From a phage, in the NCBI GenBank assembly GCA_036253495.1, contig GCA_036253495.1_4125.1: a stretch of 64,000 nt of DNA. One strand, given 5' to 3'. Positions within the stretch are counted from its first letter, which is position 1; every line of letters begins with the position of its first letter. Positions 5,505-64,000 of the stretch are shown here, one piece after another. A model generated the notes under the pieces. It was not told the DNA's origin. It made no database searches and worked only from the letters and a program-made list of their open reading frames with translations. The position numbers and the translations under genes were made by a program.

Positions 5505-5505
5505 T

Positions 5506-6108: not shown

Positions 6109-6110
6109 TA

Positions 6111-8272: not shown

Positions 8273-8796
8273 TGACTGATTCAATGACAGTACTGGTACG
8301 TACTAAGTTACTATTGAAGATTGGTGAGATTTTCACAGATCTTATGCACAATCAAATTGATATTACAGAACTAGATATTAAGCAACCGTGGGAAATTACA
8401 AGGTTCTCGGCGTTCCACCGATTGTCATATAAAGGTGAAACTGTTCTTGATTTTAATCACAAAGCAAAATTCATGGATTATGCCGCGTTGTACCGAAATA
8501 ATTATTCAGGTTGTATAACCAATAACTTCAAAGGAATAAAAGTACAGATTGAATCAATTGAATTTAACGAATTACTATATCCAGAATTTAAGTTAACTGA
8601 AGAATCTATGTTTCAGTACTCACTAATTCTAAAAGATCTAGAAACTCTAGAGTACTACAGAGAGTTAGTAGATATTTTTATGAATGTTCGTCTTTCAAAA
8701 GATATTGTGATATTCTGGTATACAGAGCGTATTACAGAGGAAGTACTTGAAGAATTTCTCGTAAATATGACAGCTATTAAGGAGAATTTATGTTAG
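8272..8796 (+). CDS. hypothetical protein, FQ-motif paralog family
   Basis: ORF track; motif EESMFQYSL. Confidence 0.65.
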   Translation: MTDSMTVLVRTKLLLKIGEIFTDLMHNQIDITELDIKQPWEITRFSAFHRLSYKGETVLDFNHKAKFMDYAALYRNNYSGCITNNFKGIKVQIESIEFNELLYPEFKLTEESMFQYSLILKDLETLEYYRELVDIFMNVRLSKDIVIFWYTERITEEVLEEFLVNMTAIKENLC

Positions 8797-9254
8797 ACAT
8801 TTTAGGAAACATTGATACGGTAAACTTTTTTATTCAAGACGCAATTATCAATATCACATCAAAGCCAATCCAAGTTAGAAGTAACTTTTATAGTGGGGAT
8901 GGTTATATGGTTGATATTGTTGAAGTTAAGAAAAATGTTTTCCAAATCAATATTCTCACACAAACGAGAACACAGATTTCTCGTATCATCATCAATAAAG
9001 ATGAAGCCGTCATTCGTTATAATTCAAAATTCATGATGTTCTTTAAAAAGAAAACTGGTATGTTCAGTACTAATCTCTTTGATGAATCATTTTATTCAAC
9101 CGATGTGGAATCTACCTTCTTCACACAAAGTACATTTATCAAATTTGATAGTATTGAGTTCGATTCAAATATCATGTCAGAAACATTACAATGCCTAAAG
9201 GTATTACATAATGAATTTACCAACTTTATCGATAGCCGAAACAAGATTAACTAA
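8790..9254 (+). CDS. hypothetical protein, probable FQ-family member
   Basis: ORF track; degenerate motif FFTQSTF. Confidence 0.6.
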   Translation: MLDILGNIDTVNFFIQDAIINITSKPIQVRSNFYSGDGYMVDIVEVKKNVFQINILTQTRTQISRIIINKDEAVIRYNSKFMMFFKKKTGMFSTNLFDESFYSTDVESTFFTQSTFIKFDSIEFDSNIMSETLQCLKVLHNEFTNFIDSRNKIN

Positions 9255-9669
9255 TATAAATGAATTAGTTAATGCTATCTTATCATGCAAATTAAAAATT
9301 GATACCAAATGTAAGTACAATGGTATTAATTTATACAAATTAAAATATTCACGAATACATAATTCAGTAAAATACATTTACGGTACTAGTCAAATCATCT
9401 TTGAAACGGTTACAGTGAACAGTAAATTACTTATTGATGTTTATATCAGTAATAAGATTAAAAATTCACAAAAAGTGTTGACAGTTTCTTCTGATAATGT
9501 TACTATGTTTGATACCAACAATAAGAAGTTAGATATTGATTTAGATGTTATTCTTGATGGTGACTTATTCCAGTACGAGTGTATTGGTCTAAATAATCCA
9601 TTTGATAAATCAGTACTAGTCAATTTAATCAAACATATTAAGGGTATTTTAGATGAAACTAACAACTGA
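9211..9669 (+). CDS. hypothetical protein, probable FQ-family member
   Basis: ORF track; motif GDLFQYEC; 44 nt overlap with upstream ORF, start uncertain. Confidence 0.55.
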   Translation: MNLPTLSIAETRLTNINELVNAILSCKLKIDTKCKYNGINLYKLKYSRIHNSVKYIYGTSQIIFETVTVNSKLLIDVYISNKIKNSQKVLTVSSDNVTMFDTNNKKLDIDLDVILDGDLFQYECIGLNNPFDKSVLVNLIKHIKGILDETNN

Positions 9670-10153
9670 TATGAAACTTTGCATTTCTTTGATTATGCGT
9701 TCATTCGATGACAAAAGGACAAGTAAAGTTACTATCACCAATGACCATTTACAATGCAGTACACTCAATAGTACTGTAGTTTTCGGATTACATAGCCTCC
9801 GTTTGACGATAGTAAATAATATTGACAATACGGCGATGTGTATTACCCCCTGCCACGTTCAGGATGAACATGGTGTTTATCTTCACCACATGGGGACTTC
9901 GTATTTCATTTTCAATGAAGAAAAGGGAGTACAAAAAGACTTTAACACGTTGTGCGTAGACGGCGGTGAATTGTTCCAGATGGGAACTTTATATCAGTGT
10001 GATTTTACTGATACATCTGAAGTACTTCCATTATTTCTTGATCTCATTAAGAATTTAGGTTCATTTACTGGTCGCTATAACAAATCATTAAAGGCACAGG
10101 CAATTCAAAATATCTCGGAAGCAATAGAATATTACGAAAACGCTGTGTCGTAA
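9653..10153 (+). CDS. hypothetical protein, FQ-motif paralog family
   Basis: ORF track; motif GELFQMGTL. Confidence 0.65.
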   Translation: MKLTTDMKLCISLIMRSFDDKRTSKVTITNDHLQCSTLNSTVVFGLHSLRLTIVNNIDNTAMCITPCHVQDEHGVYLHHMGTSYFIFNEEKGVQKDFNTLCVDGGELFQMGTLYQCDFTDTSEVLPLFLDLIKNLGSFTGRYNKSLKAQAIQNISEAIEYYENAVS

Positions 10154-10193
10154 CACCAGCACATGGATGTGCGATGACGATCAAGGATAGATC

Positions 10194-10667
10194 ATGGAGA
10201 TTAAAACTGTTGAAAACGGAAAGATTGATGACATTTTAGAGTTGGACGCTTTCAAAGTGCATGATATAATGTTTAACGTAAGAGACATTATCCAATGCCT
10301 TTTCTTGTGCAGCAAGTCAATGTATGAACATTTCCATTGCCCACGTACTAATATTTTTATACTAACTATCAGTACTGAAAACTCATTTATAATGGGTATA
10401 CCAATGAATACGAATGAAGAATATATTGATTGTGTTGTTCGTAATGATCCTTCTATCACACCACAGAGTGAAGTGCATAAGAAGAAAAATACATATACTA
10501 TTAAAGACGATAAAATTATGATGTGCGTTACCAAGGGTTTTCTACTTGACAACTTCATAATCAAAGATAGTTATCATGACTTTAAAGTATCTGAGAAGCA
10601 AGTCAACGTAGTTCTATATGCAAGTGATATCGAGAGCCTTACAGTGAAAGATCCAGACCTGGAGTAA
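10194..10667 (+). CDS. hypothetical protein
   Basis: ORF track; AGGATAG RBS before ATG. Confidence 0.65.
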   Translation: MEIKTVENGKIDDILELDAFKVHDIMFNVRDIIQCLFLCSKSMYEHFHCPRTNIFILTISTENSFIMGIPMNTNEEYIDCVVRNDPSITPQSEVHKKKNTYTIKDDKIMMCVTKGFLLDNFIIKDSYHDFKVSEKQVNVVLYASDIESLTVKDPDLE

Positions 10668-10669
10668 TT

Positions 10670-10807
10670 ATGGCTAAGAAATCTAAAGTAAACAACTTTG
10701 TTGCAAAGCACTGTAATGAGTTTAATAAGGCTCAAGTGCACGTGGACCGCAAGAAAGCTGCAAAAAATGGAAAAATTAAACACCAGTCGAGATTTTATCT
10801 CGACTAA
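10670..10807 (+). CDS. small basic protein (45 aa), hypothetical
   Basis: ATG 2 nt after upstream stop with GGAG RBS; MAKKSKVNNF...; below track size cut-off; terminator hairpin overlaps its 3-prime end. Confidence 0.4.
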   Translation: MAKKSKVNNFVAKHCNEFNKAQVHVDRKKAAKNGKIKHQSRFYLD

Positions 10808-10813
10808 TTTTTT
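10785..10813 (+). terminator. rho-independent terminator
   Basis: Hairpin agtcgagat/atctcgact followed by T-run. Confidence 0.65.
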
Positions 10814-10829
10814 GTCCGAGGAAATGTAA

Positions 10830-11666
10830 ATGTTCTTAAACTTCAAAGAGTATTCAGTACTTGATCATATCAAGATTCTATCTGAGAATCCTGAAACATT
10901 TGGTGCAGTAAAAACAGCAAATGGAGAATCTTATGATGTTTATAACATTACAGGACATACTGTTTCTGTAAAAAACAATATCCGTCCTTCGACACTAGAT
11001 ATTAATATTCGTAATAATGAAACTTATGAAACTTCACTATCATACGAATATGATTCAGATCTTAAGTCTGAAATATTCAACACACCATCAGTCCATTATT
11101 ACAAGTCAGAAGATACAATTCGTTACCGAGATACCACGATTAATGATATAGTTTTTAATCGTAGAATTAATGCCAGTGGTATAGTTTCAGTTCGTAGTAC
11201 TGATAGATTTGCAAAATATACTGTCGAAAATAATGTACGATCATTTGAAACAACTTTCCGTCTAACACAAGGTACAGAAGAAAGCAACATCACACTCCAA
11301 GAACGTTTGTCATCAGACGGGATTATTATGCGTAGTGTTGCTTTTTTCAGATATAACACCGAAGATGGGCGTCCAGTGATGTGTGATTTGGATATCACTC
11401 GTACAGGTGATAAAACAATTGCCACTATAACCTCTGGATACCGACATTCGTTTACATTAGAACTGGATGTACCTGATGCATCATTACTTGGTATTTTTGA
11501 TCCGCTGGCAGCATTTCAAGCAGAGTTAGTACTGAACCCTAAGCAGTACGAGATTCTTGATATCTTACGTAAAGGCATAGTTAATAAGTTGAAAACTTAC
11601 CAACAGTTAGGTGGTAAGATGAGTATAGTTAATACTATTCTCGAAAATATTGAAAGAGTAAGTTAA
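10830..11666 (+). CDS. hypothetical protein (278 aa)
   Basis: ORF track; GAGGAAATG RBS context. Confidence 0.7.
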   Translation: MFLNFKEYSVLDHIKILSENPETFGAVKTANGESYDVYNITGHTVSVKNNIRPSTLDINIRNNETYETSLSYEYDSDLKSEIFNTPSVHYYKSEDTIRYRDTTINDIVFNRRINASGIVSVRSTDRFAKYTVENNVRSFETTFRLTQGTEESNITLQERLSSDGIIMRSVAFFRYNTEDGRPVMCDLDITRTGDKTIATITSGYRHSFTLELDVPDASLLGIFDPLAAFQAELVLNPKQYEILDILRKGIVNKLKTYQQLGGKMSIVNTILENIERVS

Positions 11667-40901: not shown

Positions 40902-41276
40902 TTATGCTTTTTTACGTAGGATGTATTGTCCATTATGTAATTTAATTTTGTGAATCATGTACATAGTGCAAAACCCTTCAATACCTGCTTCTTCATCTTT
41001 CAATTTAATGAAGAAAGTATTATCTCTTAGGCTTTCTACAAGGCTTTCATCTGAATCTTCGAAATTCATGATATATGAATCTTTATTTCTATACACCATC
41101 TGAACATATTCATAAACCTTACCGCTTTCATCGATTAGATCATAAGTATGTGCTGAACGTTGTTTTAAAATATATAGTTTACCAAGAATAGCTGCTCCAT
41201 TAATTTTAGCACCAGTAATTTCGATACCATTAATAGAAAAAGGAAGTCTTCCGGTTAATGCAATTGGTTTACCCAT
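40902..41276 (-). CDS. hypothetical protein, paralog of the N-terminal domain of the Ig-like repeat protein
   Basis: Track ORF 40902..41318 trimmed to internal ATG giving MGKPIALTGRLPF..., matching the N termini of its two paralogs; GGAGAAG RBS. Confidence 0.6.
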   Translation of the reverse strand: MGKPIALTGRLPFSINGIEITGAKINGAAILGKLYILKQRSAHTYDLIDESGKVYEYVQMVYRNKDSYIMNFEDSDESLVESLRDNTFFIKLKDEEAGIEGFCTMYMIHKIKLHNGQYILRKKA

Positions 41277-41336
41277 TATTATTATACTTCTCCAAGTAAA
41301 GTGCATGATAATTTTCATGCACTATATTATTAAAAA

Positions 41337-43763
41337 TTAAGCACTGATTGTTACAGTTGCAGTATCAGTTTTATTGCCATTCGCAGTAGTCACTGTAATG
41401 ACTACAGTACCTTCTTCTAGAGCAGTTACTAATCCATCATCACTAATAGATACTTTAGTAGGTTCATCTGCACTATAAGTTACTGATTTGTTAGTTGCGT
41501 TAGCTGGAAGAACTTCTGGAACTAGTTGAACTGTTTTAGTACCTGATAGTGAAAGATCAGTGGCTTTAGGTGTTAAACCAACGCTGGATACTGGTACTGG
41601 AATATTAACAGTTACAGCACATTTTGCAGTTTTTGCACCATCAGTAGTTTTTACAGTGATATCAGCAGTACCGTTTGCAACAGCAGTGATTAAACCACTT
41701 GCACTAACAGTTGCGACCCCAGCAGCAGAAGTACTATAAGTTACTGCTTTGTTAGTTGCATTAGCTGGTAGTACAGTTGGTGTTAGTTGTTGAGTTGCAC
41801 CAACAGATGTTAAAGTTGCTGTTGTTGGAGAAACAGAAACACTAGCTACAGGAACTGGGATTGACACAGTAATGACACCTTGACCTGTTTTACCACTTCC
41901 ATCAGCGGCAGTTGCGATAATGTTTGCAGTACCGTTAGTTAACGCAGTTACAACACCAGTACTAGCATCAACTTTCGCTACAGCAGGTGCACTAGAAGAC
42001 CATGTTACAGCTTTATTAGTTGCGTTAGCTGGAAGAACTTCAGCAGCCATTGCTTGAGTTGCGTTAACAGCAGTCAATGTTTTAGTTGCTGGTGTAACAT
42101 TAATAGTTGTTACTGGAACTGGAATTGCTACAGTTACTGCACAAACCGCAGTTTTTGCACCATCAGCGGTTGTTACGGTGATGTTAGCAGTGCCATTTGC
42201 TACAGCAGTTATCAATCCTGAAGTGCTAACAGTTGCTACACCCGCATTAGAAGTACTATAAGTTACTGCTTTATTGGTTGCATTAGTTGGTGCAACCGAT
42301 GGTGTTAGTTGTTGTGTTGCACCAACAGATCTTAAAGTTGCTGTTGTTGGAGAAACAGAAACACCAGTTACTGGTACTGGAATATTAACAGTTACAGCAC
42401 AAACTTTACTAAAGCCACCATCAGCAGTAGTAGCCGTGATATTAGCAGTGCCATTCGCTACCGCAGTGATTAAACCACTTGTACTAACGGTTGCAACACC
42501 AGCAGCAGAAGTTGCGTATGTTACTGCTTTGTTACGAGCATTAGCTGGTAGAACAGTTGCAGTTAATTGCTGTGTTGCACCAACAGAAGTTAATGAAGCG
42601 GTTGCAGGTGTTAGGTTAATACCAGTTACTGGGATCGTCACATCAATAATTGATTGTGCGGTTTTTTCACCATCAATAGTTGTTACGGTAATAGTGGCAG
42701 TACCATTATTAACAGAAGTTACTAAACCGTCATCATCAACTTCTGCTACTGTAGGTGCAGAAGATTCATAACGAACTTCCTGATTTGATGCAGTTCTTGG
42801 TAGTACCGTTGCTGTTAATGGTTCATTTGCACCAATAGTAGTGAATGTATATGTTTCAGGTGTTAACGTAACACCAGTTACTGCTGTTTGAACTTTAATA
42901 GAAGAAGTATCAGTAAATGAACCATCTTCAGATGTTGCAGTAATAGTAACATCACCATTGGATACACCTGTTACCAACCCAGAATCTTTATCAACTGTTG
43001 CAACGGATGGAGCAGATGAAGTCCATATAACTTTCTTGTCTGTTGCTGAGGCCGGAGTAACTTCAGCTAACAATTGTTGAGTTGACCCAACGTTTACAGT
43101 TGCAGATTTAGGAGAAACGGTAACACCAGTAACACCAGTACTGACAACGATAGAACACACATCTGTGAAATCACCATCGTGAGTTGTTACGGTTACATCA
43201 GCATTGCCATTTGCAAGTGCAGTTGCTAGACCTGTTTGAGCATCAACTTCAACGATTGTAGGAGCAGATGAAGAGTAGGTTACTGCCTTGTCTTTTGCAT
43301 TAGATGGAACTACTTGGGCTGATAGTTGTTTTGTTGCACCAACTTTAAGAGATGCATCTTTGGGTGTAATTACAACACCAGTTACGGGGATATCAGCATT
43401 AACATAATCGCGTTTTACGATACGACCATTATTTAATTTAATAACACGACCCATATAAAGCATAGTATACCCCATGCTAATACCATCATCAACATAGATC
43501 ATGAATGAATTGTCTTGAACCATATTAATTGCGTCTGCTGGTTCAACAGAATTTGGAATGTCGATACCACGAGTATCATACCAACGCATGGAAACTTTGT
43601 AATAGATATCACCATTATCATTGATGAGATCATACACGTTACCGGAACGTTGACGGTTAATATATAAAGTTTCCGTTAACACCTTACCATCGATTTTAGC
43701 GACAGAAACTTTAATACCACCAATACCAAAAGGCAATTTACCTTCACTAGATATTGCTTTCAT
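41337..43763 (-). CDS. virion-associated Ig-like (Big_2-type) repeat protein, Hoc-like decoration/adhesin candidate
   Basis: 808 aa; N-terminal ~130 aa domain shared with flanking ORFs, then about seven tandem ~90 aa repeats with VTGV..P.......G.TQQL...V.P.NATNK.VT..SS....ATV...GL.TAV.NGTA.IT pattern; late promoter upstream. Confidence 0.75.
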   Translation of the reverse strand: MKAISSEGKLPFGIGGIKVSVAKIDGKVLTETLYINRQRSGNVYDLINDNGDIYYKVSMRWYDTRGIDIPNSVEPADAINMVQDNSFMIYVDDGISMGYTMLYMGRVIKLNNGRIVKRDYVNADIPVTGVVITPKDASLKVGATKQLSAQVVPSNAKDKAVTYSSSAPTIVEVDAQTGLATALANGNADVTVTTHDGDFTDVCSIVVSTGVTGVTVSPKSATVNVGSTQQLLAEVTPASATDKKVIWTSSAPSVATVDKDSGLVTGVSNGDVTITATSEDGSFTDTSSIKVQTAVTGVTLTPETYTFTTIGANEPLTATVLPRTASNQEVRYESSAPTVAEVDDDGLVTSVNNGTATITVTTIDGEKTAQSIIDVTIPVTGINLTPATASLTSVGATQQLTATVLPANARNKAVTYATSAAGVATVSTSGLITAVANGTANITATTADGGFSKVCAVTVNIPVPVTGVSVSPTTATLRSVGATQQLTPSVAPTNATNKAVTYSTSNAGVATVSTSGLITAVANGTANITVTTADGAKTAVCAVTVAIPVPVTTINVTPATKTLTAVNATQAMAAEVLPANATNKAVTWSSSAPAVAKVDASTGVVTALTNGTANIIATAADGSGKTGQGVITVSIPVPVASVSVSPTTATLTSVGATQQLTPTVLPANATNKAVTYSTSAAGVATVSASGLITAVANGTADITVKTTDGAKTAKCAVTVNIPVPVSSVGLTPKATDLSLSGTKTVQLVPEVLPANATNKSVTYSADEPTKVSISDDGLVTALEEGTVVITVTTANGNKTDTATVTISA
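41500..43300 (-). repeat. in-frame tandem coding repeats (Ig-like domain array)
   Basis: Near-identical DNA segments recur at about 270 nt spacing; these also create the spurious antisense ORF 42274..42771. Confidence 0.6.
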
Positions 43764-43799
43764 ATACTTTCCTTTATAAATTGTATTGTAGTGTTATAT

Positions 43800-43807
43800 T
43801 ATTTATA
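43800..43807 (-). promoter_or_regulatory. T4-type late promoter TATAAATA
   Basis: Reverse complement of tatttata, about 36 nt upstream of the minus-strand start at 43763. Confidence 0.55.
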
Positions 43808-43831
43808 TTATACCAAAAGTATTTTAGGATT

Positions 43832-43854
43832 AAAAAAAGGAGTCCGAAGACTCC
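43832..43854 (-). terminator. rho-independent terminator (minus strand)
   Basis: Hairpin ggagtc cgaa gactcc; the A-run on + reads as a T-run on minus. Confidence 0.65.
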
Positions 43855-43867
43855 TTAAAATATAAAG

Positions 43868-44383
43868 TTATTGGAAACGAGCATACGGTGGGAATCTGGT
43901 TTGGTCAGGCCAATCTTTCGGAGAGAAGTAAGCAGTGAATTGCATTTTATCATTTGAATAAAGAACAAAATCATCTGGCTTTATTATAACTTTAGACAAC
44001 GAATTTGGCTCCACGTTCGTTCTTCTGAAAATTATTTCACCATTATGTAATTTTATTTTATTACTTTGATATTGAATACCAAAACCATACTTATTATTAA
44101 TAGCATCAGCTTCTTTTATGCAAAATGTATTATTTGCTAAAGATTTAGCAATTTCAGCATCGTCATCATCATACAACAATGTTGATTTATCTTTATTTCT
44201 ACCTGTGATTTTTATATCTTTGTAAATCTTGAAATTTTCAGATATTAAATCATATGAATCGAATGTTCTTTGTTTTATAACATACAATTCTTTAACAAAT
44301 ACTTGCCCTTCTATCTTTGCAGCAGTAACCTGCAATCCACCTATAACAAATGGAAATTGATCTAAGCCAGCTATTGGTTTCAT
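43868..44383 (-). CDS. hypothetical protein, paralog of the N-terminal domain of the Ig-like repeat protein
   Basis: 171 aa; MKPIAGLDQFPFVIGGLQVTAAKIEGQV...IKLHNGEII parallels the other two paralogs. Confidence 0.65.
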   Translation of the reverse strand: MKPIAGLDQFPFVIGGLQVTAAKIEGQVFVKELYVIKQRTFDSYDLISENFKIYKDIKITGRNKDKSTLLYDDDDAEIAKSLANNTFCIKEADAINNKYGFGIQYQSNKIKLHNGEIIFRRTNVEPNSLSKVIIKPDDFVLYSNDKMQFTAYFSPKDWPDQTRFPPYARFQ

Positions 44384-55554: not shown

Positions 55555-56496
55555 ATGCAAATAGATAAATTATATACGGACGTAACTAACTTCCTCAACC
55601 AGAGTAACGCTGATTTAACAAATGAAAATGCAAATAAAGACGCTAAATGTGTTAATACACATCGTGATTTATTGGCAGGTATTCTTTCTAAACATTATTC
55701 CCAAGATGTGATTCCTGATGAATTGATGAAGTGGCATAATGAAGGTTACGGTCATATTCATGATTTAGACTATTACATTAGCCCATTAACAAACTGTTGT
55801 TTAGTTAATTATCCTGATATGCTTGCTAATGGCTTCATGATTGGTTGTGCCAAGATTGAAGAACCAAAAAGCTTTGGGGTAGCTTGTACAGTACTAACAC
55901 AGATTGTTCAGGCTGTGGCAAGTTCACAGTACGGTGGTCAGTCGTTGGCTCACATTGACACTGGCCTTGCACCATATGTACAAAAGTCATGGGATAAACT
56001 TCTAGAAAAACAAAAGAAATACAATCTTAGTACTGAATTCATCGAAGATGAGTTGCGTAAGGAAGTTTATGACGGTTGTCAAACAATTCTATATCAAACA
56101 AACTCAATGATCAGTACTAATGGTCAGGCTGCGTTCATTTCTTTGAGTTTAGGATTAGGTACATCTAAATTTGAAAAACTAATCACTGAACAATATTTGA
56201 AAGTACATGAAAATGGACTAGGTAAAGATAAGATTACTCCAGTATTTCCTAAAGTAATATTCTTTCTTCAGGATGGAATTAATATGAATACCAATGATAC
56301 TAACTATGATCTTAAACAGTTAGCTATGCGTTGTGCATCAAAAAGAATCTATCCAGACTTTGTTTCTGTACCATTGAACCATAAAGTAACTGGAAGTACC
56401 AGTACTGCTGTTACTCCTATGGGATGCAGAAGCTTCTTAGGTAAATGGGAAGATGAAAATGGCAACGAACAGTACAATGGCCGTTTCAATTTGGGT
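55555..56496 (+). CDS. nrdD: anaerobic ribonucleoside-triphosphate reductase NrdD, exon 1
   Basis: N-terminal 314 codons of a class III RNR; the frame runs into the interruption and stops at 56523; proposed 5-prime splice site after ...GRFNLG (exon ends in U). Confidence 0.75.
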
Positions 56497-57666
56497 AGAC
56501 ATACATGCCCCATTGCTGAGTGATCAGTAATTGCAAACACGTTAACATGCTGGAACCCCCTAAAGCCATAAACACTACAACGCAATCTTAATAGATAAAC
56601 GTGAATGTTACGAGAGTAGAAAAAAGTTTTATGGATATATAATAAGTTGTAAATCATATTATATGTACAATGGGAAATCAGCAGCCAAGCCATCATTAAT
56701 ATAATGGTGGAAGGTTCAACGAGTATAATACGTGACTCTAATATTAAAACTTCCATAAATAATATTTTATGGAGGATATATAATGAGAAAAGGAAGTATA
56801 TATAAAATAGAATGTATAGTAACTAATAAAGTTTATATTGGACAAACCGTTTTATATCCACCGATGAAAAGATGGGTGGAACACTGCCAAAACAATGATG
56901 AAAAATCATGTATTAGTAAAGCTATTAAAAAATTTGGTTTTGAAAATTTCACATTTCAAATTTTAAAAACTAATATTGATTTAAATAATCTTAATGATGA
57001 AGAAATAAAATATATTGAAATTTATGATAGTTATAAGAATGGTTACAACTCAACATTAGGTGGTCACCAAACCTTTAATGGAAGTAAAATAACTGAACTT
57101 GATGCTATAAAAATTATAGAATATATTAAATCATATAAAGATCTTTCATTCGTAGAAATAGCAAAAACTTTAAATGTTCCATACGGCTGTGTAAGTGATA
57201 TAAATTGTGGCGAAACTTGGTATCAAATAAATGAAACATACCCTATTAGAGATAACAAAAGAAATAAGATTGAAGATAATATAGATTCAATTTATGAGTT
57301 ATTGAGAAATGGTGTTTCTAGTATAGAAATTGCAAAAATATATAATGTTTCAAATGTCACCATTTGTAACGTTAATAATGGAACAATCTATCGAAACGAA
57401 TCAGTTGAATACCCAATTTTTAAACCACAAAATTCATCAAAACGACATTCTATTGAAATAGTTTCTAAGATTATTGATATGTTAATTAATACAGATAAAA
57501 ATTATTCTGAAATTGCAAAATGTTTAAATGTAGGAAGAAAAACTGTTGCAAATATCAATAACGGTTCTGGATATAAAGAACTATCAAATGAACTTGGTTA
57601 TATATCATTTCCTCTTCGTTAGAGTATGGTGTACTCTAATCCTTCATGAAAGTGAAGGTACAAATG
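56497..57666 (+). mobile_element. probable group I intron interrupting nrdD, carrying a GIY-YIG homing endonuclease ORF
   Basis: 1.17 kb separating two halves of nrdD; exon 1 ends in T, the interruption ends in G (candidate omega-G); GCCCC a few nt inside the 5-prime end can pair with exon GGGU (P1 with U-G wobble); ~285 nt structured segment precedes the ORF, as in the T4 nrdD intron. Confidence 0.6.
56783..57622 (+). CDS. GIY-YIG homing endonuclease (I-TevII-like)
   Basis: 279 aa; N-terminal GIY-YIG module (GSIYKIECIVTNKVYIGQT); repeated helix-turn-helix-like segments downstream; lies within the nrdD interruption. Confidence 0.8.
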   Translation: MRKGSIYKIECIVTNKVYIGQTVLYPPMKRWVEHCQNNDEKSCISKAIKKFGFENFTFQILKTNIDLNNLNDEEIKYIEIYDSYKNGYNSTLGGHQTFNGSKITELDAIKIIEYIKSYKDLSFVEIAKTLNVPYGCVSDINCGETWYQINETYPIRDNKRNKIEDNIDSIYELLRNGVSSIEIAKIYNVSNVTICNVNNGTIYRNESVEYPIFKPQNSSKRHSIEIVSKIIDMLINTDKNYSEIAKCLNVGRKTVANINNGSGYKELSNELGYISFPLR

Positions 57667-58530
57667 GTTGTCTCAATCAACCTACCGCTAATTGCTCTTG
57701 AAAGCACTACTGATGGTGATTTCTTTGATAAGATAGATGAGCATATGAACATTGCATACAGAGCACAGATGAACCGTGTAGAGCGTTTAAAAGGTACTAA
57801 GGCTAAACAGAACCCGATTCTGTTCATGGAAGGTGCTCTTGCACGTCTTGATGCAGAAGAAACTATTGACAAACTCTTCTACGATGGTTATGCTAGTATT
57901 AGTATTGGTTATGTAGGATTAGTTGAATGTTCAGAGATTTTGACTGGTTCAATCAGTAAAGAGTTCTGTATGTCAGTACTGAATTATATGAAAGTCAAAT
58001 GCGATGAGTTCAAAAAAGAGAGTAACATAGCTTTTAGTCTATATGGAACCCCAGCAGAGTCACTTTGCTACAAATTTGCACGTTGCATCGAATCTAAGTA
58101 CCCTTCAGTACTAAAACGTGATTACATCACAAATTCCTTCCATCAACCAGTATGGGTAGAAAGTTCACCATTTGATAAGTGGAGTTACGAAGAGGGCTTT
58201 GCTTACCTCAGCAATGGAGGAAACATCAGTTATGTGGAATCACCCAACCTAAGTAACAATATTCAAGCACTTGAGACTTTAGTCAATTACGCTTACACAA
58301 AGATTCCATATTTTGGCATCAACCAGCCAATTGACCAGTGTTTCGAGTGTGGGTATAAAGGTGAGTTCAGTGTAGATAAACACGGTTTTCATTGTCCAGT
58401 ATGTGATAATCGCAATGAGAAGACAATCTCAGTGATTCGTCGTGTTTCTGGATATTTGGGGAACCCATCGTCTCGTGGATTCAACAAAGGCAAACAACAA
58501 GAATGTTGTGAGCGTATACAACACAAATAA
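57667..58530 (+). CDS. nrdD: anaerobic ribonucleoside-triphosphate reductase NrdD, exon 2
   Basis: C-terminal part with zinc ribbon CFECGY...CPVCDN and glycyl-radical motif RRVSGYLG; exon junction reads ...FNLG|VVSINLPLIALE. Confidence 0.75.
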   Translation, partial: VVSINLPLIALESTTDGDFFDKIDEHMNIAYRAQMNRVERLKGTKAKQNPILFMEGALARLDAEETIDKLFYDGYASISIGYVGLVECSEILTGSISKEFCMSVLNYMKVKCDEFKKESNIAFSLYGTPAESLCYKFARCIESKYPSVLKRDYITNSFHQPVWVESSPFDKWSYEEGFAYLSNGGNISYVESPNLSNNIQALETLVNYAYTKIPYFGINQPIDQCFECGYKGEFSVDKHGFHCPVCDNRNEKTISVIRRVSGYLGNPSSRGFNKGKQQECCERIQHK

Positions 58531-58538
58531 GGTACATT

Positions 58539-58871
58539 ATGGATTTAAAGCCAATTGTAGTTAACAAATATAAAGAACCATATGATGTGTATATTGGTCG
58601 TGGGTCTAAATGGGGAAATCCATTTACCCACATTAATGACAAACAAACAAAGGCAGAGTTTATAGTTCCGACACGAGAAGAGTCGATTGAGAAGTTCAGA
58701 GAGTATCTTATCCAAAGAATTGAAAATGGTGAGGTTACTATCGAAGAACTACTTGAATTGGCTGGGAAGCGTCTTGGGTGCTTTTGTAAGCCAAAATCAT
58801 GTCATGGTGATGTTCTTGTAGAAATAGTGAGTGCAATATTAGATGAATTACCAGACGATAATCAAGGATGA
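58539..58871 (+). CDS. conserved phage protein of unknown function
   Basis: 110 aa; motifs YDVYIGRGSKWGNPF and GCFCKPKSCHGDVL. Confidence 0.65.
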   Translation: MDLKPIVVNKYKEPYDVYIGRGSKWGNPFTHINDKQTKAEFIVPTREESIEKFREYLIQRIENGEVTIEELLELAGKRLGCFCKPKSCHGDVLVEIVSAILDELPDDNQG

Positions 58872-59474: not shown

Positions 59475-59500
59475 AAGCACCCTTTGGGTGCTTTTTTTAT
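59475..59500 (+). terminator. rho-independent terminator
   Basis: Hairpin agcaccc ttt gggtgct followed by TTTTTTT. Confidence 0.75.
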
Positions 59501-59505
59501 ACTAT

Positions 59506-59513
59506 TATAAATA
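59506..59513 (+). promoter_or_regulatory. T4-type late promoter TATAAATA
   Basis: Exact TATAAATA about 32 nt upstream of the tail-fibre-like gene start. Confidence 0.6.
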
Positions 59514-59544
59514 CACTATGGATATCTAGATAAAAGGGATATAT

Positions 59545-62244
59545 ATGGCAAAGAAAATATATGGTGGCATTGATGTTACACATAATGTAACAGTCAAAGG
59601 TAAGAGAAGTGTTCAGAGCATCAATGATAACGTATTTGATGAAAATGGCAATCTCACAATAGATGCATATACACAAGATGATATGCTGGAAATGGTTGGT
59701 ATGTTACCCATTTCTCGTTATGGTACACAAAACTATCTACCTGCTGGTGTCAATGGTACAACAGTTGGTTCTTCAGAAAATGCTAGTTCCAGAAATACAA
59801 AATTATTTTTGGAAGATGATAACACTTTAGTAATGTTACGTCCGGGTACTAATGGAAGTTCACAGGGGATTTATTATAGTTATATGACCCAGGCGGTTGG
59901 TACAACAAATACAAGTCGTATGGTTAATACTACTCGTGCATATAAACCAAATTATTTTGGTGCTGGGTATGCAGTTTATTTGTATCCAAGCAGTGATGAT
60001 ATTACTTGTGGTTTGGTGAGAACTGAAAATTCTGATGGTACATATATTGATAGAGTTTTTGTTTCAGTCAATAATGGTACTATGAATGATACAATGCACA
60101 CTGGTATTATTCTATCAGACCATACAGCCGTACAACCTTTTGGTGCAATACAATTTGTTATTCGTGCTGAAGATGGTTCATTATACTTTTTCAGTTTAGA
60201 TACACCAAGCAATACTCTTAAAATATCCGTTACTAAAGTTACTTTTAGTCCAAGTAATAACCCAGGTGGTGGTACTTATAGTGTTACTAGAATTACTGGT
60301 TGGGCCACAAGAACTTTTTATAATGCAATGGTATATGATGACAATATTGTTCCAACTATGAAAATAAATTCAACAAATACCAATGATAATCCATACGTTT
60401 TAATTCCAAGTGGTATTATTGGGTTTGGTGTTTATATGACAGATCCAGATTTATATGTTGCACAGAAATCTGGTACATCCGAATTCAGATTTAGATTATG
60501 TGGTGATATGTGGATGACAAATGGACGATATGACACACGCCCACAACATGGTTTTAGTATGACTTTTGATGTTGTGACAAAACAATGTAAATTAGATAAT
60601 ATGTTAACGACTACACCAGTTGCTGTTAATGACACGGGTTCAAGTATGAATGTAACGGGTCAATGCATAACAAAAGATCCATTTTATCTTCACGCGGGTC
60701 TGCGTAATATTTTTAGTAATTATTGCTATGTACCATCAACTGGTGATGCATTTTGTTCATTCTCACCAAACCTCGCAGAAGCATTGAACTTATCATATGC
60801 GAAATATCCACCACAGTCATTGTTTAATTTAATGAATGTTAGAAGTGTATCAGCAACTAATTTTATTAATGGTGTAGTATCACCAAGATTTGGTTCAGCA
60901 GTTGGTTCATACCAAGTAGGTGTAGAGTTATTACCAAATAACAGTACTAAACAATATTCAAGACGTTCTGGTGATGGTCGTTTTTATCCATCCTATGCTG
61001 TACATAAAGCTACACCGAACTTCACATTTAAGTCTCTAGACTATGGTACTGTTCCTGGTTATGAACCAACACCAGACCGAGCGTTTATAACTACACCAGA
61101 ATCTAGAATTTTTATAAGTTCAATTTCTGGATCAACGGTAACGACTAATGGTGGTGTTTTGGTGGCTGATAATAGAACATCAACTCCTATTAGTTTTGAT
61201 TATAAAGGTAATGTACTGAATAATGGTACAATCAGTATGTCTCAAGATATAATGAATGCTATTCGAAATTCCGAATTTGCTAAAGTTGCTAGTTCATGGA
61301 ATATATCACCAGAATCAATAAAAACATTATCTGTATTTGTTCCACAACAAACTGATATTCCTGTTTTTGGTGTTCTTGCAGCATCTACTACAGCCCGTGG
61401 TCTATATATTCGAGTTGTTGAATTGAATGTCAATACAAGAACTGGTGATATTACAACGTGGTCGTTCAAACGTTTAGTACATGAAAGTGTTCAAGCTGGG
61501 GATTACAAAACAGATACCGCATATCATCTTGATAGTGGAAGTATTGGTATTACTATATATGATGCGGGTTCTTTCTACTTCATTGGTGGTGGTATTCCTG
61601 GTTTCTTTAATACAGTTGGTAATACAAACTCTCCATTTTTCCGTGCTACAGTGGATAAAGCGACAGCCCAATTTAATAATTTCCATATAGCTGGTGGACG
61701 TCCGATCTATGCATTAGATGGTCAACCATTCGCTTTACCTAACATTGGGTTTGGTATTCTTCAAAGTATAGATAATAATAACAAAACAATTTTTAGAACA
61801 TATGGTACAACATTAGCGGATTATAATGCATGGACTGATAAAGGAAATCCAGTTATATGTCTTGTTTCCCAAGATGTTGCTCAAGGTTTTATTATATACT
61901 TCACCGAAGAGACACCAGTACTGATATCCGGTAAACACTATACATTACCAATATCAAATATAGATTTAACAACTGTGAAAGCAAATCCTGCCAATACTAC
62001 ATTTTATGTGTATATTAAATTAGTACAGGGTATTGCAAACTATCATATATCAACAACTGAATTAGCTGAAACTCATTCAATATTCTGGATTGGTACAGTG
62101 AAAACTGATAATTTACAAATAACCGAAATTAATATAGAAAAACGTTCTCGTTTAGACCTGTTTGGTTCATCATTCAACGCTGCCGGAAGTTCCTTCCCAG
62201 TAAGTTCTGGGTTCCCTTCAAGTTCTGGTAATGTGAATTGGTAA
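59545..62244 (+). CDS. tail fibre / receptor-binding protein candidate
   Basis: 899 aa; Gly/Ser/Thr/Asn-rich; late promoter; N-terminal block MLPISRYGTQNYLPAGVNGT shared with the ORF at 62856; C-terminal block shared with 62255..62845. Confidence 0.6.
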   Translation: MAKKIYGGIDVTHNVTVKGKRSVQSINDNVFDENGNLTIDAYTQDDMLEMVGMLPISRYGTQNYLPAGVNGTTVGSSENASSRNTKLFLEDDNTLVMLRPGTNGSSQGIYYSYMTQAVGTTNTSRMVNTTRAYKPNYFGAGYAVYLYPSSDDITCGLVRTENSDGTYIDRVFVSVNNGTMNDTMHTGIILSDHTAVQPFGAIQFVIRAEDGSLYFFSLDTPSNTLKISVTKVTFSPSNNPGGGTYSVTRITGWATRTFYNAMVYDDNIVPTMKINSTNTNDNPYVLIPSGIIGFGVYMTDPDLYVAQKSGTSEFRFRLCGDMWMTNGRYDTRPQHGFSMTFDVVTKQCKLDNMLTTTPVAVNDTGSSMNVTGQCITKDPFYLHAGLRNIFSNYCYVPSTGDAFCSFSPNLAEALNLSYAKYPPQSLFNLMNVRSVSATNFINGVVSPRFGSAVGSYQVGVELLPNNSTKQYSRRSGDGRFYPSYAVHKATPNFTFKSLDYGTVPGYEPTPDRAFITTPESRIFISSISGSTVTTNGGVLVADNRTSTPISFDYKGNVLNNGTISMSQDIMNAIRNSEFAKVASSWNISPESIKTLSVFVPQQTDIPVFGVLAASTTARGLYIRVVELNVNTRTGDITTWSFKRLVHESVQAGDYKTDTAYHLDSGSIGITIYDAGSFYFIGGGIPGFFNTVGNTNSPFFRATVDKATAQFNNFHIAGGRPIYALDGQPFALPNIGFGILQSIDNNNKTIFRTYGTTLADYNAWTDKGNPVICLVSQDVAQGFIIYFTEETPVLISGKHYTLPISNIDLTTVKANPANTTFYVYIKLVQGIANYHISTTELAETHSIFWIGTVKTDNLQITEINIEKRSRLDLFGSSFNAAGSSFPVSSGFPSSSGNVNW

Positions 62245-62254
62245 TGGAGATAAT

Positions 62255-62845
62255 ATGGCTTATAAATTTAGATCTGATGTGGAAGCGTATGCTTCCGTTA
62301 AATCACAAGGAAAAAATACTGGGACCACGATAACTGATCGTTCTGGTAATGTGTATCAAGCTGATGCTAATGGGAATGTTGATGTACCACTCATGAGTAC
62401 AGATGATGTGAATTACATTACCAGTTCCTTTCCGTTATCACAATTTGGTTCACTTTACAGTACTGAACCATTGGGTATTTCTGCTGCTGGTTTCAATTTA
62501 ACTTTCAGCAAAGAATTACCGTTATTCATGGCGGGAGCGGCGTATACCCTCCCAGCTAAAACAATAACGGACCCAGGAGTTACTGGAACTAATATTGAAA
62601 CACATTATGTATATGTTATATTAGATGTTGGGGTAGCTGACTACCTCATTTCTAAAACTCAACGCCCTGAAAGTAGTGTTAATATGTACATAGGACAACT
62701 GACAGTTTTCCCAGATGGCATTACAGGGGTCAGTATAAATAAAGTGTCAAGATTTGACGACTTCAGAGTAAGTGCTACAAAAATTGGTTCAGCTATCCCT
62801 ATCAGTTCTGGTACACCAGATGTGAATAGTGGGACAGAATGGTAA
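62255..62845 (+). CDS. tail-fibre-associated protein (shares C-terminal module with the upstream fibre gene)
   Basis: 196 aa; YTLPAKTITDP...HYVYVILDVG...SINKVSRFDDF parallels HYTLPISNIDL...FYVYIKLVQG...NIEKRSRLDLF; both end in SSG..W. Confidence 0.55.
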   Translation: MAYKFRSDVEAYASVKSQGKNTGTTITDRSGNVYQADANGNVDVPLMSTDDVNYITSSFPLSQFGSLYSTEPLGISAAGFNLTFSKELPLFMAGAAYTLPAKTITDPGVTGTNIETHYVYVILDVGVADYLISKTQRPESSVNMYIGQLTVFPDGITGVSINKVSRFDDFRVSATKIGSAIPISSGTPDVNSGTEW

Positions 62846-62855
62846 AGGAATATAT

Positions 62856-64000
62856 ATGGCTTCGAGACGAATTATAGGAAACGCAGAAATACTAGGGAAT
62901 TTGAAAATTAATGGAAAGTATGCATTACGTTCCTTTAATGGATTCCCTGCTGATTCTGCTGGTAATATCACTTACCAATATTATGACAAAGCGGAAGTGG
63001 ATCAAATGTTTGATATGCTTCCTGTTTCAAGGGTAGGTGATCAAGATTACCTACCGATGAGTATTAACGGTACATTTGAAGGTGCTTCTTCCTTTTCATT
63101 TGCAAAAATAATGCAACCTTGTATCATTGAAAATGATGGTACTGGTGTAATTTTACGTGCAGGTACAAATGGAAGTTCTTATGGTTTCTATTATGCTTAT
63201 ATAAAAAATATAAGAGATATAGAAACATTAACTCAAGATAATATAATTACAACCAACACGATGTATAGACCTTCTGTGCTACCAAGTACTGATTACATTT
63301 ATGAATTTTATGGGTCAAATGCATATGAATTACTATTTTGGGAATCGACTGATAGAGCATCATACTACCTTACATTAACAAATGAAACATTAAATGAATC
63401 TGCTCATAAACACTGTAGAATTCCAAAAACAGCAATAACAAATAAACCAATCTATGCACACATCGTAAATGATTCAGTTTATATATGGTGTATGGATTCA
63501 AGTGTATTGAGTAGTGTTCGCGGGTGTGCATTTATCATATACACAGTACCTTTAACTGCATTTAATACTGGTTCAGTTTCGACAGTAACACAGATTAGTG
63601 GTTATTCAGGAAGAACTATAAGAAATGTAACATACACTGCATCTAATAATATTCGTGTTTATGATAGTTATTCAGTGTTGGGTTCAGGTGGTGATGCACT
63701 AATAGCATATGATAATGGTGTTTCCAGAATAGATTATTGGGAAAATAACGCATTTAATACCCAAGCAGTTCTTAGCCCTGATGGTACAAAAATAAGAGTA
63801 GCGATATATCCAGGGTTTCGTGTCTTTACCGCAACAAAAACATCTAGTGTATATGCACTTGGTATCAGCTTTACATATGATATCAGTACTAAAACAATGA
63901 CACTTGACGGTTCTGAACGTGGTCCAATCAGAGTATCAGCTAATACATCAACTGGTAGTATAACAGTGAGTAACCCGTTTTCAATCAATATGGAAAACTT
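62856..64000 (+). CDS. second tail-fibre-like protein, 3-prime truncated by window end
   Basis: ATG 10 nt after upstream stop with AAAGGAA RBS; frame open to position 64000; N terminus paralogous to 59545 ORF (MLPVSRVGDQDYLPMSINGT; LRAGTNGSSYGFYYAY). Confidence 0.6.
   Translation, partial: MASRRIIGNAEILGNLKINGKYALRSFNGFPADSAGNITYQYYDKAEVDQMFDMLPVSRVGDQDYLPMSINGTFEGASSFSFAKIMQPCIIENDGTGVILRAGTNGSSYGFYYAYIKNIRDIETLTQDNIITTNTMYRPSVLPSTDYIYEFYGSNAYELLFWESTDRASYYLTLTNETLNESAHKHCRIPKTAITNKPIYAHIVNDSVYIWCMDSSVLSSVRGCAFIIYTVPLTAFNTGSVSTVTQISGYSGRTIRNVTYTASNNIRVYDSYSVLGSGGDALIAYDNGVSRIDYWENNAFNTQAVLSPDGTKIRVAIYPGFRVFTATKTSSVYALGISFTYDISTKTMTLDGSERGPIRVSANTSTGSITVSNPFSINMEN

What the first reader, a model, noticed from the sequence alone, without database searches (positions are those of the whole stretch)
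59545..64000. Three adjacent late genes built from shared tail-fibre modules
The 899 aa ORF and the truncated ORF starting at 62856 share an N-terminal block (MLP(I/V)SR(Y/V)G...YLP...NGT and L R (P/A) G T N G S S). The 899 aa ORF and the 196 aa ORF share a C-terminal block and the ending SSG..W. Such module shuffling is typical of receptor-binding proteins and may mark host-range determinants.
Basis: partly seen in the sequence, partly recalled or inferred. Interest (0 to 1): 0.4.

Follow-up and report, generated by a model that had tools for sequence, protein, structure and literature searches.

The report
Conserved three-paralogue virion fibre cassette
Three neighbouring late genes of a giant E. 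coli phage are ancient copies of one virion protein, two full-size and one that kept only its two ends; giant phages conserve this set as a trio, and it probably builds a variable host-binding appendage.

Summary
ORF A (899 aa) matches truncated ORF C (E 5e-25) and 196-aa ORF B (E 3e-18).

"Module shuffling" is the wrong description:
- The window is an Asteriusvirus jumbo coliphage, 96% identical to phage A4.
- Using A4's complete C (99% identical), A and C align end to end. They are whole-length tandem paralogues.
- B is the middle paralogue with about 715 central residues missing. It keeps a 65-aa N-terminal "head" and a 120-aa C-terminal "tail" domain.

Comparative evidence:
- Family genes sit in runs of three in 19 of 21 metagenomic viral loci.
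- In RaK2-like phages the A-, B- and C-type ends keep a fixed order.
- The all-beta, propeller-like body was lost independently at different positions.

Other support:
- A terminator plus a T4-type late promoter (ATAAATA) precedes the trio in 13 of 14 phages.
- A and C orthologues were detected in virion proteomes of phAPEC6 and JP4.
- The tail domain resembles the shoulder domains of phage receptor-binding proteins.
- The cassette is hypervariable between close phages, with recombinant patches in A's body.

Best reading: three non-identical chains of one variable host-binding appendage. Co-assembly and location are inferred, not shown.

The parts
59475..59500 (+). Rho-independent terminator closing the upstream nrdG/small-ORF unit: hairpin AAGCACCC-TTT-GGGTGCTT followed by a T-run.
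   Evidence: Sequence read; hairpin listed. The same hairpin is conserved upstream of the first gene of the trio in 13 of 14 related phages.
59506..59513 (+). T4-type late-promoter motif TATAAATA, 32 nt before the ATG of A.
   Evidence: The motif occurs only 3 times in the window against 10.7 expected. A second copy lies 37 nt upstream of an Ig-repeat structural gene. ATAAATA sits at -38 to -44 in 13 of 14 orthologous loci. The CBB paper reports the same motif before structural genes.
59545..62244 (+). Gene A (899 aa), the A-type (position 1) chain and a full-size family member (phrog_3573).
   Evidence: Orthologues were detected in virions: phAPEC6 gp323c and JP4_233.
59545..59739 (+). A 'head' (aa 1-65): a conserved segment with a short helix (aa 44-53) and the LPxSxYG motif. 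AF2 confidence for the monomer is low despite the conservation.
   Evidence: Invariant G35, P55, S57 and G60. pLDDT below 50. Head profile E 2e-26.
59779..61869 (+). A 'body' (aa 79-775): confidently predicted all-beta domains of propeller type. It begins with the family-invariant E90..R99-G-T-N-G104 motif.
   Evidence: pLDDT is mostly 80-95. The best PDB matches are beta-propeller proteins with low TM. The same whole fold occurs in jumbo-phage 'virion structural proteins'. Invariant residues are listed.
59851..60900 (+). Two recombinant or variable patches in A's body (nt 59851-60150 and 60451-60900; aa about 103-200 and 302-452) relative to the otherwise nearly identical phage A4.
   Evidence: Nucleotide identity drops to 64-89% within a background of about 100%. 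dS is 0.27-0.33 for aa 79-600, against about 0.03 in B, C and nrdG and 0 in A's head and tail.
61870..62241 (+). A 'tail' (aa 776-899): a small beta-sandwich domain (to about aa 865) plus a conserved, disorder-predicted C-terminal peptide RLDxFGxS..GSSFPVSxGxP..G..NW.
   Evidence: tail profile E 8e-56. The domain profile finds 514 cluster representatives. There is no Pfam or PDB sequence match.
62255..62845 (+). Gene B (196 aa, phrog_26864), the B-type (position 2) chain. It is head (aa 1-66) + 10-aa linker + tail (aa 77-196) and lacks the roughly 715-aa body.
   Evidence: Alignment. Best hits are both ends of the 916-aa CBB_148, and B shares a head insertion with CBB_148. dN/dS is 0.06-0.35. 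In the model, the beta-sandwich (aa 75-161) has pLDDT about 90. Its top PDB fold hits are phage receptor-binding, fibre and baseplate proteins.
62734..62741 (+). A second TATAAATA inside the 3' part of B, 115 nt upstream of C. It may be an internal late promoter or a chance match.
   Evidence: Not examined further.
62856..64000 (+). Gene C, the C-type (position 3) chain, cut by the window end. The first 381 of about 913 codons are present.
   Evidence: The window part is 99% identical to A4_497, which is 913 aa. Matches phrog_3573. The orthologue JP4_235 was detected in virions.

Best explanation
A, B and C are the three position-specific paralogues (A-type, B-type, C-type) of one conserved jumbo-phage virion appendage. 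They are transcribed together from a T4-type late promoter.

Domain plan of each chain:
- a roughly 65-aa N-terminal head
- a roughly 120-aa C-terminal tail, made of a beta-sandwich resembling receptor-binding-protein shoulder domains plus a conserved terminal peptide
- in full-size chains, a roughly 700-aa all-beta, propeller-like body between the two ends

Proposed mechanism (inferred):
- The heads and tails of the three chains form the common stem or anchor. The simplest version is an A:B:C hetero-oligomer with pseudo-threefold symmetry that docks onto the tail or baseplate periphery.
- The bodies are the exposed, fast-evolving ligand-binding (possibly enzymatic) parts.
- In this phage the B-type chain has lost its body and serves only as a stem or anchor subunit.

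Shown: homology, domain anatomy, trio conservation, purifying selection, mosaicism, the late-promoter motif, and virion detection of A and C orthologues.

Inferred: co-assembly, location on the virion, and receptor binding.
For: Homology and anatomy
- A and C are homologous end to end.
- B equals head plus tail, as in the full-size CBB_148.

Trio conservation
- Genes sit in threes: 13 IMG/VR loci have three adjacent family genes, 6 have two consecutive trios, and only 2 of 21 have another number.
- The same holds in the annotated phages: CBB, fHe-Yen9-04 and GAP32 are L-L-L; Asteriusvirus and Hallingskeid are L-mini-L; XaC1 is mini-mini-L; Agricanvirus is 420/1163/1150 aa.
- In RaK2-like phages the ends keep the order A-type, B-type, C-type. 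The body is missing at position 1 (L017, L018, L024, L025, XaC1), at position 2 (Asteriusvirus, Hallingskeid, XaC1), or shortened at position 3 (L024, L025) (trees).

Body-less forms are functional
- dN/dS for B is 0.06-0.35.
- Minis are a common class: 48 of the 146 best cluster representatives are 131-260 aa and 80 are 861-1250 aa, with the domain almost always at the extreme C-terminus.

Fold and virion association
- The nine best PDB fold hits of B's model are all phage receptor-binding, fibre or baseplate proteins: p2 RBP 1zru (E 3e-3), A-1(L) fibre, Mtd, HFTV1 baseplate and SPP1 gp22.
- Virion MS: phAPEC6 gp323c; JP4_233 and JP4_235 at similar low abundance.
- Late promoter.

Variability
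- Against phAPEC6, A, B and C are 53, 41 and 49% identical, while flanking genes are 81-96%.
- Recombinant patches are confined to A's body, while A's head and tail are identical to A4.
Against: - No direct evidence of co-assembly.
- B's orthologue was not among the 49 JP4 virion proteins, and it was not annotated in phAPEC6, so it could not be found there.
- Both MS lists also contain obvious non-structural proteins (thymidylate synthase, PhoH, ClpP-like), and A and C rest on only 2-4 peptides.
- The fold similarity of the tail domain is weak (TM 0.42, E 3e-3).
- The body's PDB matches are generic propellers (TM 0.2-0.33).
- The trio rule is not universal: EL and L034 have two genes, SPN3US-like phages one, and L029 one. 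Several IMG/VR loci are near-duplicates of each other.
- The phAPEC6 authors assign other proteins (Gp248, Gp256, Gp314) as tail fibres.
Confidence: 0.5

Rival explanations
1. The three products are independent homo-oligomeric (probably homotrimeric) fibres or spikes. Each docks at its own site through its own type of head and tail. A body-less B homotrimer then acts only as a plug, spacer or adapter at the B site.
For: - The tail domain's structural neighbours (p2 RBP, Mtd, A-1(L) fibre) are homotrimers (homotrimer status from my own knowledge).
- Position-specific conservation of the ends fits three distinct docking sites as well as it fits a hetero-oligomer.
- Some phages carry only one or two family genes.
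Against: - A fibre without any binding body would be expected to be lost. Instead body-less chains are retained under purifying selection, at different positions, in several lineages.
- The number three is kept whatever the sizes are, including paired L-mini-mini sets.
Confidence: 0.3
2. One reading: the three genes are mosaics assembled by horizontal shuffling of separate N-terminal and C-terminal tail-fibre modules between different receptor-binding proteins.
For: - Some exchange does occur. A's body carries recombinant patches relative to A4.
- In XaC1 and CBB the body and tail trees disagree. The bodies of CBB_148 and XaC1_225 are sisters at 100% bootstrap, but their tails group with different lineages at 59-76%.
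Against: - A and C are collinear homologues over their whole length.
- B aligns only to the two ends of the same family, with one clean internal gap.
- The ends are the stable, position-specific parts rather than the mobile ones.
- No foreign module was detected by Pfam, PHROGs or NCBIfam.
Confidence: 0.08
3. The proteins are not tail or baseplate fibres. They could be other virion-associated components, such as the hair-like whiskers on the sheath and capsid of phAPEC6 and CBB, or they could be non-structural proteins that co-purify with virions.
For: - phAPEC6 and CBB carry unexplained hairs whose genes are unknown.
- The MS evidence is thin, and both lists contain contaminants.
- The cassette lies among nucleotide-metabolism genes, away from the main structural block.
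Against: - The family is equally present in phages for which the CBB paper reports no such whiskers among other RaK2-like phages.
- The late promoter is shared with structural genes.
- The fold neighbours of the tail domain are receptor-binding and baseplate proteins.
- Many homologues are annotated as virion structural proteins.
Confidence: 0.1
4. B is a decaying remnant, a pseudogene-like fragment left by a deletion, with no function.
For: It is derived by loss of about 715 residues relative to its full-size counterpart, and it was not detected in JP4 virions.
Against: - An intact ORF of constant length (190-196 aa) is kept across phages that are only about 40% identical in B.
- dN/dS is 0.06-0.35.
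- It has its own Shine-Dalgarno sequence and tight spacing.
- Its invariant residues match those of full-size tails.
- Dozens of independent mini clusters exist in metagenomes.
Confidence: 0.02

Closest known systems
phiKZ gp131-gp135 tail-fibre paralogues (crystal structure of the gp131 C-terminal domain; phiKZ structural atlas, PMC13250141)
   Same: - An adjacent paralogue array in a jumbo phage.
- A shared attachment segment plus divergent bodies.
- gp131 carries a beta-propeller.
- The paralogues are modelled as co-assembling into a heteromeric fibre base on the outer baseplate.
   Different: - No sequence match to any PDB chain, and gp131 is not among the 50 listed Foldseek PDB hits.
- In phiKZ the shared module is N-terminal only. 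Here both ends are shared and the conserved globular module is C-terminal.
- Here the number is three with a fixed order, and body-less members exist.
Shoulder or N-terminal domains of trimeric receptor-binding proteins: lactococcal phage p2 RBP (1zru), SPP1 gp22 (2xc8), Bordetella phage Mtd (1yu0-4), cyanophage A-1(L) fibre (8kec)
   Same: The best fold matches of the B model, a short helix followed by a small beta-sandwich. In those proteins this part is the oligomerising, baseplate-proximal part (my own knowledge).
   Different: - The similarity is weak (E 3e-3, TM 0.42, 11-15% identity).
- In the known proteins the domain is N-terminal, with the receptor-binding head after it.
- Here the sandwich is C-terminal, and the body sits between the N-terminal helix and the sandwich.
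Goslar DUF7941 proteins gp22/gp23 (bioRxiv 10.64898/2026.04.21.720040)
   Same: A jumbo-phage virion paralogue family with long and short members. The short one keeps only the assembly module, and the family is proposed to build host-recognition filaments at the peripheral baseplate.
   Different: - A different family. The RAY genes listed as DUF7941 (gp8, 9, 11, 215, 218) are not the Agricanvirus genes that carry this tail domain (gp18-20).
- No Pfam hit.
- DUF7941 is reported as chimallivirus-specific and highly abundant. A and C orthologues are low-abundance.
(gp6)2-gp7 / TssF2-TssG type baseplate-wedge heterotrimers of contractile injection systems (my own knowledge, not tested here)
   Same: A precedent for three related chains of unequal length forming one heterotrimeric unit through shared terminal segments.
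   Different: No sequence or significant fold similarity. The T6SS baseplate chain 6giy_D appears only at E 5.3. This is an analogy of principle only.
PHROG families phrog_3573 and phrog_26864 (function unknown)
   Same: A and C match phrog_3573 (E 5e-196 and 2e-83). B matches phrog_26864 over its full length (E 2e-43).
   Different: These are unannotated clusters and carry no functional information. PHROGs separates the mini and the full-size forms although their heads and tails are homologous.

Membership tests
phrog_3573 / phrog_26864 (jumbo-phage proteins of unknown function) | A significant full-length match to the family profile. | tested here: met
   A: E 5.4e-196 over 1-899. C part: E 1.7e-83. 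B: E 2.3e-43 over 1-196 of phrog_26864.
Head-body-tail trio family defined here (RaK2-like jumbo phages) | Three adjacent genes whose heads and tails are A-type, B-type and C-type, in that order, preceded by a terminator plus ATAAATA. | tested here: met
   By best hit of head plus tail, A goes to CBB_147, B to CBB_148 and C (A4_497) to CBB_149. The promoter and terminator are present.
phiKZ gp131-like tail-fibre paralogue family | Sequence or fold similarity to the gp131 N-terminal attachment domain or to its seven-bladed propeller. | tested here: not met
   No PDB chain at E<=1 by sequence. The tail profile found none. gp131 is not among the 50 Foldseek PDB hits listed.
Lactococcal p2-type RBP shoulder domain / SPP1 gp22 fold | A helix plus beta-sandwich fold superposable on the shoulder domain. 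| tested here: inconclusive
Lactococcal p2-type RBP shoulder domain / SPP1 gp22 fold | Trimeric assembly at the baseplate. | not testable with these tools
   No multimer prediction or experimental data was available.
DUF7941 (Goslar gp22/gp23 filament family) | A match to the DUF7941 profile, or identity with the listed members. | tested here: not met
   No Pfam hit for A, B, C or their relatives. I could not confirm that this model is in the Pfam copy used. Independently, the listed RAY members (gp8, 9, 11, 215, 218) differ from the family's Agricanvirus genes gp18-20.
Glycoside-hydrolase five-bladed propellers (GH43/GH32/GH68) or tail-spike depolymerases | A conserved catalytic acidic triad at the propeller centre, and a significant family profile match. 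| tested here: not met
   Foldseek similarity is only generic (TM 0.2-0.33, 8% identity). There is no Pfam match. Only two acidic residues (E90, D743) are invariant among the 15 full-size paralogues.
   From the literature, for orthologues. A: phAPEC6 gp323c, 4 peptides, and JP4_233, 2 peptides. C: JP4_235, 2 peptides. B: not detected or not in the database. The evidence is low-coverage and contaminants are present in both lists.

The most novel reading that the evidence does not exclude
The trio encodes an obligate A:B:C heterotrimeric receptor-binding appendage. Its pseudo-threefold stem is built from the three non-identical heads and shoulder-like tails. Evolution tunes the number of propeller 'hands' per appendage (three, two or one) by deleting the body of individual chains. 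This design principle would be shared by hundreds of jumbo phages, including chimalliviruses such as RAY-like phages, and would identify part of the still unassigned peripheral baseplate or fibre density in these viruses.
Probability: 0.3. Interest if true: 0.7.

Novelty: new variant of a known kind. Interest (0 to 1): 0.5.

Why it matters
- The tail fibres and peripheral baseplates of jumbo phages are largely unassigned. The Goslar study could not assign its peripheral baseplate ring or tail fibres, and the genes for the phAPEC6 and CBB hairs are unknown.
- The result is a conserved three-gene set with fixed end types, optional bodies, no Pfam or PDB relative, and about 500 sequence clusters. 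This gives a concrete, testable candidate for a heteromeric host-binding appendage.
- For phage therapy with Asteriusvirus phages, it points to A's body (aa about 100-450) and to the 8-kb cassette as the places where close relatives differ. These are natural targets for host-range comparison or engineering.
- It also corrects database practice. The mini and full-size forms are split into separate PHROGs, and B and C are not even annotated in the phAPEC6 record.

Tried and rejected
- Pfam, NCBIfam and PDB sequence searches with single proteins and with a 34-sequence tail-domain profile gave nothing significant.
- I considered DUF7941 (Goslar) because of its long/short paralogue analogy. I rejected membership.
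- I considered a glycosidase or depolymerase function for the body, based on GH43/GH32 Foldseek hits. There is no supporting profile match or conserved acidic triad.
- I looked for virion evidence in four places:
  - The part of the CBB MS table I saw does not list CBB_147-149, although the record 'structural protein'.
  - The Agricanvirus MS was done on crude lysates, so it shows only expression.
  - The main text of the SPN3US paper does not mention gp172.
  - The fEgEco12 paper says nothing on this region.
- The tail-domain alignment A4 was too diverse for the locus finder, so the closer alignment A3 was used.
- NJ trees of the head alone are unresolved. The placement of XaC1_223 differs between tree and BLAST, so its A-type assignment rests on summed bit scores.

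Full report
**What is in the sequence.**
The region holds three same-strand ORFs separated by 10 nt each, each with its own Shine-Dalgarno sequence:
- A = 59545..62244, 899 aa
- B = 62255..62845, 196 aa
- C = 62856 to the window end, 381 codons

A rho-independent terminator hairpin lies just upstream at 59475-59500. The octamer TATAAATA follows at 59506-59513.

The reported similarities are real and far beyond chance:
- A 2-260 vs C 3-257: 28% identity, E 5e-25.
- A 779-899 vs B 77-196: 36% identity, E 3e-18.
- B also shares the N-terminal block with A (E 6e-5).

No further paralogue lies in the window.

**Identity of the replicon.**
The 4.4-kb region is 95.7% identical to Escherichia phage A4 and 91.3% identical to ph0011. 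Both are roughly 350-kb Asteriusvirus jumbo phages. The same three genes follow nrdD/nrdG in A4, EJP2, phAPEC6, JP4 and 121Q.

**Paralogy rather than shuffling.**
A4's complete C orthologue is 913 aa and 99% identical to the window's partial C. With it, A and C align over their whole length (26% identity, 967 columns, E 1e-54).

B aligns only to the two ends of the family:
- residues 1-66 match the first 61-66 residues, through the invariant LPxSxxG motif;
- residues 77-196 match the last 120 residues;
- a 10-residue linker replaces about 715 residues.

In Pectobacterium phage CBB, Cronobacter phage GAP32 and Yersinia phage fHe-Yen9-04, the same locus holds three full-size genes. B's best matches are both ends of the middle one, CBB_148, which is 916 aa (E 5e-15 and 7e-22). 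B shares a head insertion with it. So B is the middle paralogue without its body.

**A conserved trio.**
A profile of B-type sequences found 514 cluster representatives in 1.84 billion proteins. Among the best 146, sizes are bimodal: 48 are 131-260 aa and 80 are 861-1250 aa. The domain is almost always at the extreme C-terminus.

In 21 IMG/VR loci:
- 13 carry three adjacent family genes;
- 6 carry two consecutive sets of large-mini-mini;
- only 2 carry another number.

Some of these loci are near-duplicates of each other.

Agricanvirus chimalliviruses carry 420/1163/1150-aa members side by side. Phage EL carries two members, and SPN3US-like phages carry one.

In RaK2-like phages the combined head and tail of the first, second and third gene always classify as CBB_147-, CBB_148- and CBB_149-type respectively. 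The body, however, is missing at different positions (trees):
- position 1 in L017, L018, L024, L025 and XaC1;
- position 2 in Asteriusvirus, Hallingskeid and XaC1;
- shortened at position 3 in L024 and L025.

Body loss was therefore recurrent and independent, while all three end types were always kept.

B is under purifying selection (dN/dS 0.06 vs A4 and 0.35 vs ph0011), as are A and C.

**Structure.**
AlphaFold2 with a 33-sequence alignment gave a confident all-beta model for A residues 80-865 (mean pLDDT 79). Residues 1-78 and 866-899 are conserved but were predicted with low confidence.
- The PDB Foldseek matches are generic beta-propeller proteins: GH43, GH32, DPP8 and the phi11 receptor-binding protein. 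TM scores are low.
- In the viral model library the whole fold recurs in 'virion structural proteins' of many jumbo phages: Serratia BF (TM 0.82), CBB (0.76), PhiEaH1 (0.72), Joad and SEGD1.

B's model has a short helix (49-58) and a beta-sandwich (75-161, pLDDT about 90). Its nine best PDB matches are all phage receptor-binding, fibre or baseplate proteins: p2 RBP (E 3e-3, TM 0.42), A-1(L) fibre, Mtd, HFTV1 baseplate and SPP1 gp22. This is a consistent but weak lead.

The tail domain matches no Pfam, NCBIfam or PDB sequence. Only two acidic residues are invariant among the 15 full-size paralogues, so nothing supports a conserved glycosidase site.

**Expression and virion association.**
TATAAATA is depleted in the window: 3 copies against 10.7 expected.
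- One copy precedes A.
- One precedes an 808-aa Ig-repeat structural gene on the other strand.
- One lies inside B.

The terminator plus ATAAATA, at -38 to -44 from the start codon, is conserved upstream of the first trio gene in 13 of 14 phages from several genera. The CBB paper describes this motif before structural genes, together with a gp55-like sigma factor.

Virion proteomics:
- phAPEC6 virions contained gp323c, the 53%-identical orthologue of A (4 peptides).
- JP4 virions contained the orthologues of A (JP4_233) and C (JP4_235), each with 2 peptides and at similar low abundance. The B orthologue was not found.

Both lists include some non-structural proteins, so this evidence is supportive rather than conclusive.

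**Variability.**
Between the window phage (or A4) and phAPEC6, protein identity behaves as follows:
- flanking genes: 81-96%;
- A, B, C: 53, 41 and 49%;
- the next four small genes: 33-60%;
- the nucleotidyltransferase that follows: 88%.

This marks an 8-kb hypervariable cassette. Three of the small genes are themselves paralogues.

Between the window phage and A4, B, C and nrdG have dS of about 0.03. A's head, tail and residues 601-775 have dS of 0-0.008. A's residues 79-600 have dS of 0.27-0.33. The divergence is concentrated in nt 59851-60150 and 60451-60900. These are recombinant patches confined to the body. This is the pattern expected if the ends are anchors and the body is the host-facing part.

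**Interpretation.**
I conclude with high confidence that the finding is a late-expressed, virion-associated trio of ancient tandem paralogues, and that B is a functional body-less member.

The most economical explanation has four observations to cover:
- the fixed number three;
- the position-specific ends;
- the retention of body-less chains under selection;
- the shoulder-like fold of the tail.

It is that the three chains co-assemble through their heads and tails into one appendage that carries one to three variable bodies. The main rival is three separate homo-oligomers at three docking sites. Co-assembly, location (baseplate periphery versus sheath or capsid hairs) and receptor binding remain inferences.

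**Comparison with known systems.**
- The closest functional analogue is the phiKZ gp131-135 fibre paralogue set, modelled as a heteromeric fibre base. No sequence or fold membership was found.
- The Goslar DUF7941 family offers a parallel for long and short paralogues but is a different family.

My literature searches found no description of this trio.

Noticed in passing
window 55555-58530 (insertion about 56500-57650; GIY-YIG ORF 56783..57622): The anaerobic ribonucleotide reductase gene nrdD is split into two ORFs by a roughly 1.15-kb insertion carrying a GIY-YIG homing endonuclease (phrog_7168, E 9e-28). nrdD is uninterrupted in A4, ph0011, phAPEC6 and EJP2. No group I intron or other Rfam family was detected at E<=0.1, so this may be a free-standing endonuclease splitting the gene rather than an intron. 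The downstream flank (57750-58500) is only 69-84% identical to A4 in an otherwise roughly 100% background, which looks like a co-conversion tract.
   Followed up: partly
window 40902..44383, minus strand: An 808-aa ORF (41337..43763) made of about eight Ig-like repeats (phrog_215, 'structural protein with Ig domain'). It is flanked by two small paralogues (40902..41318 and 43868..44383, phrog_33171, virion structural protein). The only minus-strand TATAAATA of the window (43800-43807) lies 37 nt upstream of the large ORF. This is a candidate for the hair-like or decoration proteins seen on phAPEC6 and CBB.
   Followed up: partly
L001 (phage A4) 21107-23085, just beyond the window end: Directly downstream of C lie three small paralogous genes (186, 166 and 167 aa; phrog_18641/phrog_7868, unknown function) plus a 133-aa gene. 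Between A4 and phAPEC6 these are even more divergent (33-60% aa) than A, B and C. They form one hypervariable cassette with the trio and could be cognate assembly factors or accessory subunits, one per chain.
   Followed up: partly
window 59475-59544 and orthologous loci (L001-L023): Besides the terminator and ATAAATA, the leader contains a conserved (A/T)ATCT box about 20 nt downstream of the motif and a conserved AGGGATAT ribosome-binding region. These are kept across phages of different genera, which is unusually strong non-coding conservation.
   Followed up: no
L003 (phAPEC6, MK817115) 5990-9330: The GenBank record of phAPEC6 has no CDS for the B and C orthologues, leaving a 2.8-kb unannotated gap that contains intact ORFs. 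Its published virion proteome therefore could not have reported them.
   Followed up: yes
window 58530-58539 vs L001 13633-13995: A4, ph0011 and fHe-Yen9-04 carry a roughly 120-aa 'pyruvate formate-lyase' (GrcA-like glycyl-radical) gene between nrdD and the DUF4326 gene. The window phage and phAPEC6 lack it, so this is a presence/absence polymorphism next to the class III reductase.
   Followed up: no
L020-L022, L026, L027, L030 (IMG/VR metagenomic contigs): An uncultivated phage group carries two consecutive large-mini-mini trios of this family (about 976/237/232 aa, then about 980/227/247 aa), each chain with an extra roughly 37-aa N-terminal extension before the head.
   Followed up: no
L008 (XaC1) 8178-10913 vs L005 (CBB) 3321-6071: The body of XaC1_225 is sister to the body of CBB_148 (100% bootstrap), but its head and tail classify as C-type (CBB_149-like). 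This suggests exchange of a body between positions, or gene conversion of the ends, within the trio.
   Followed up: partly
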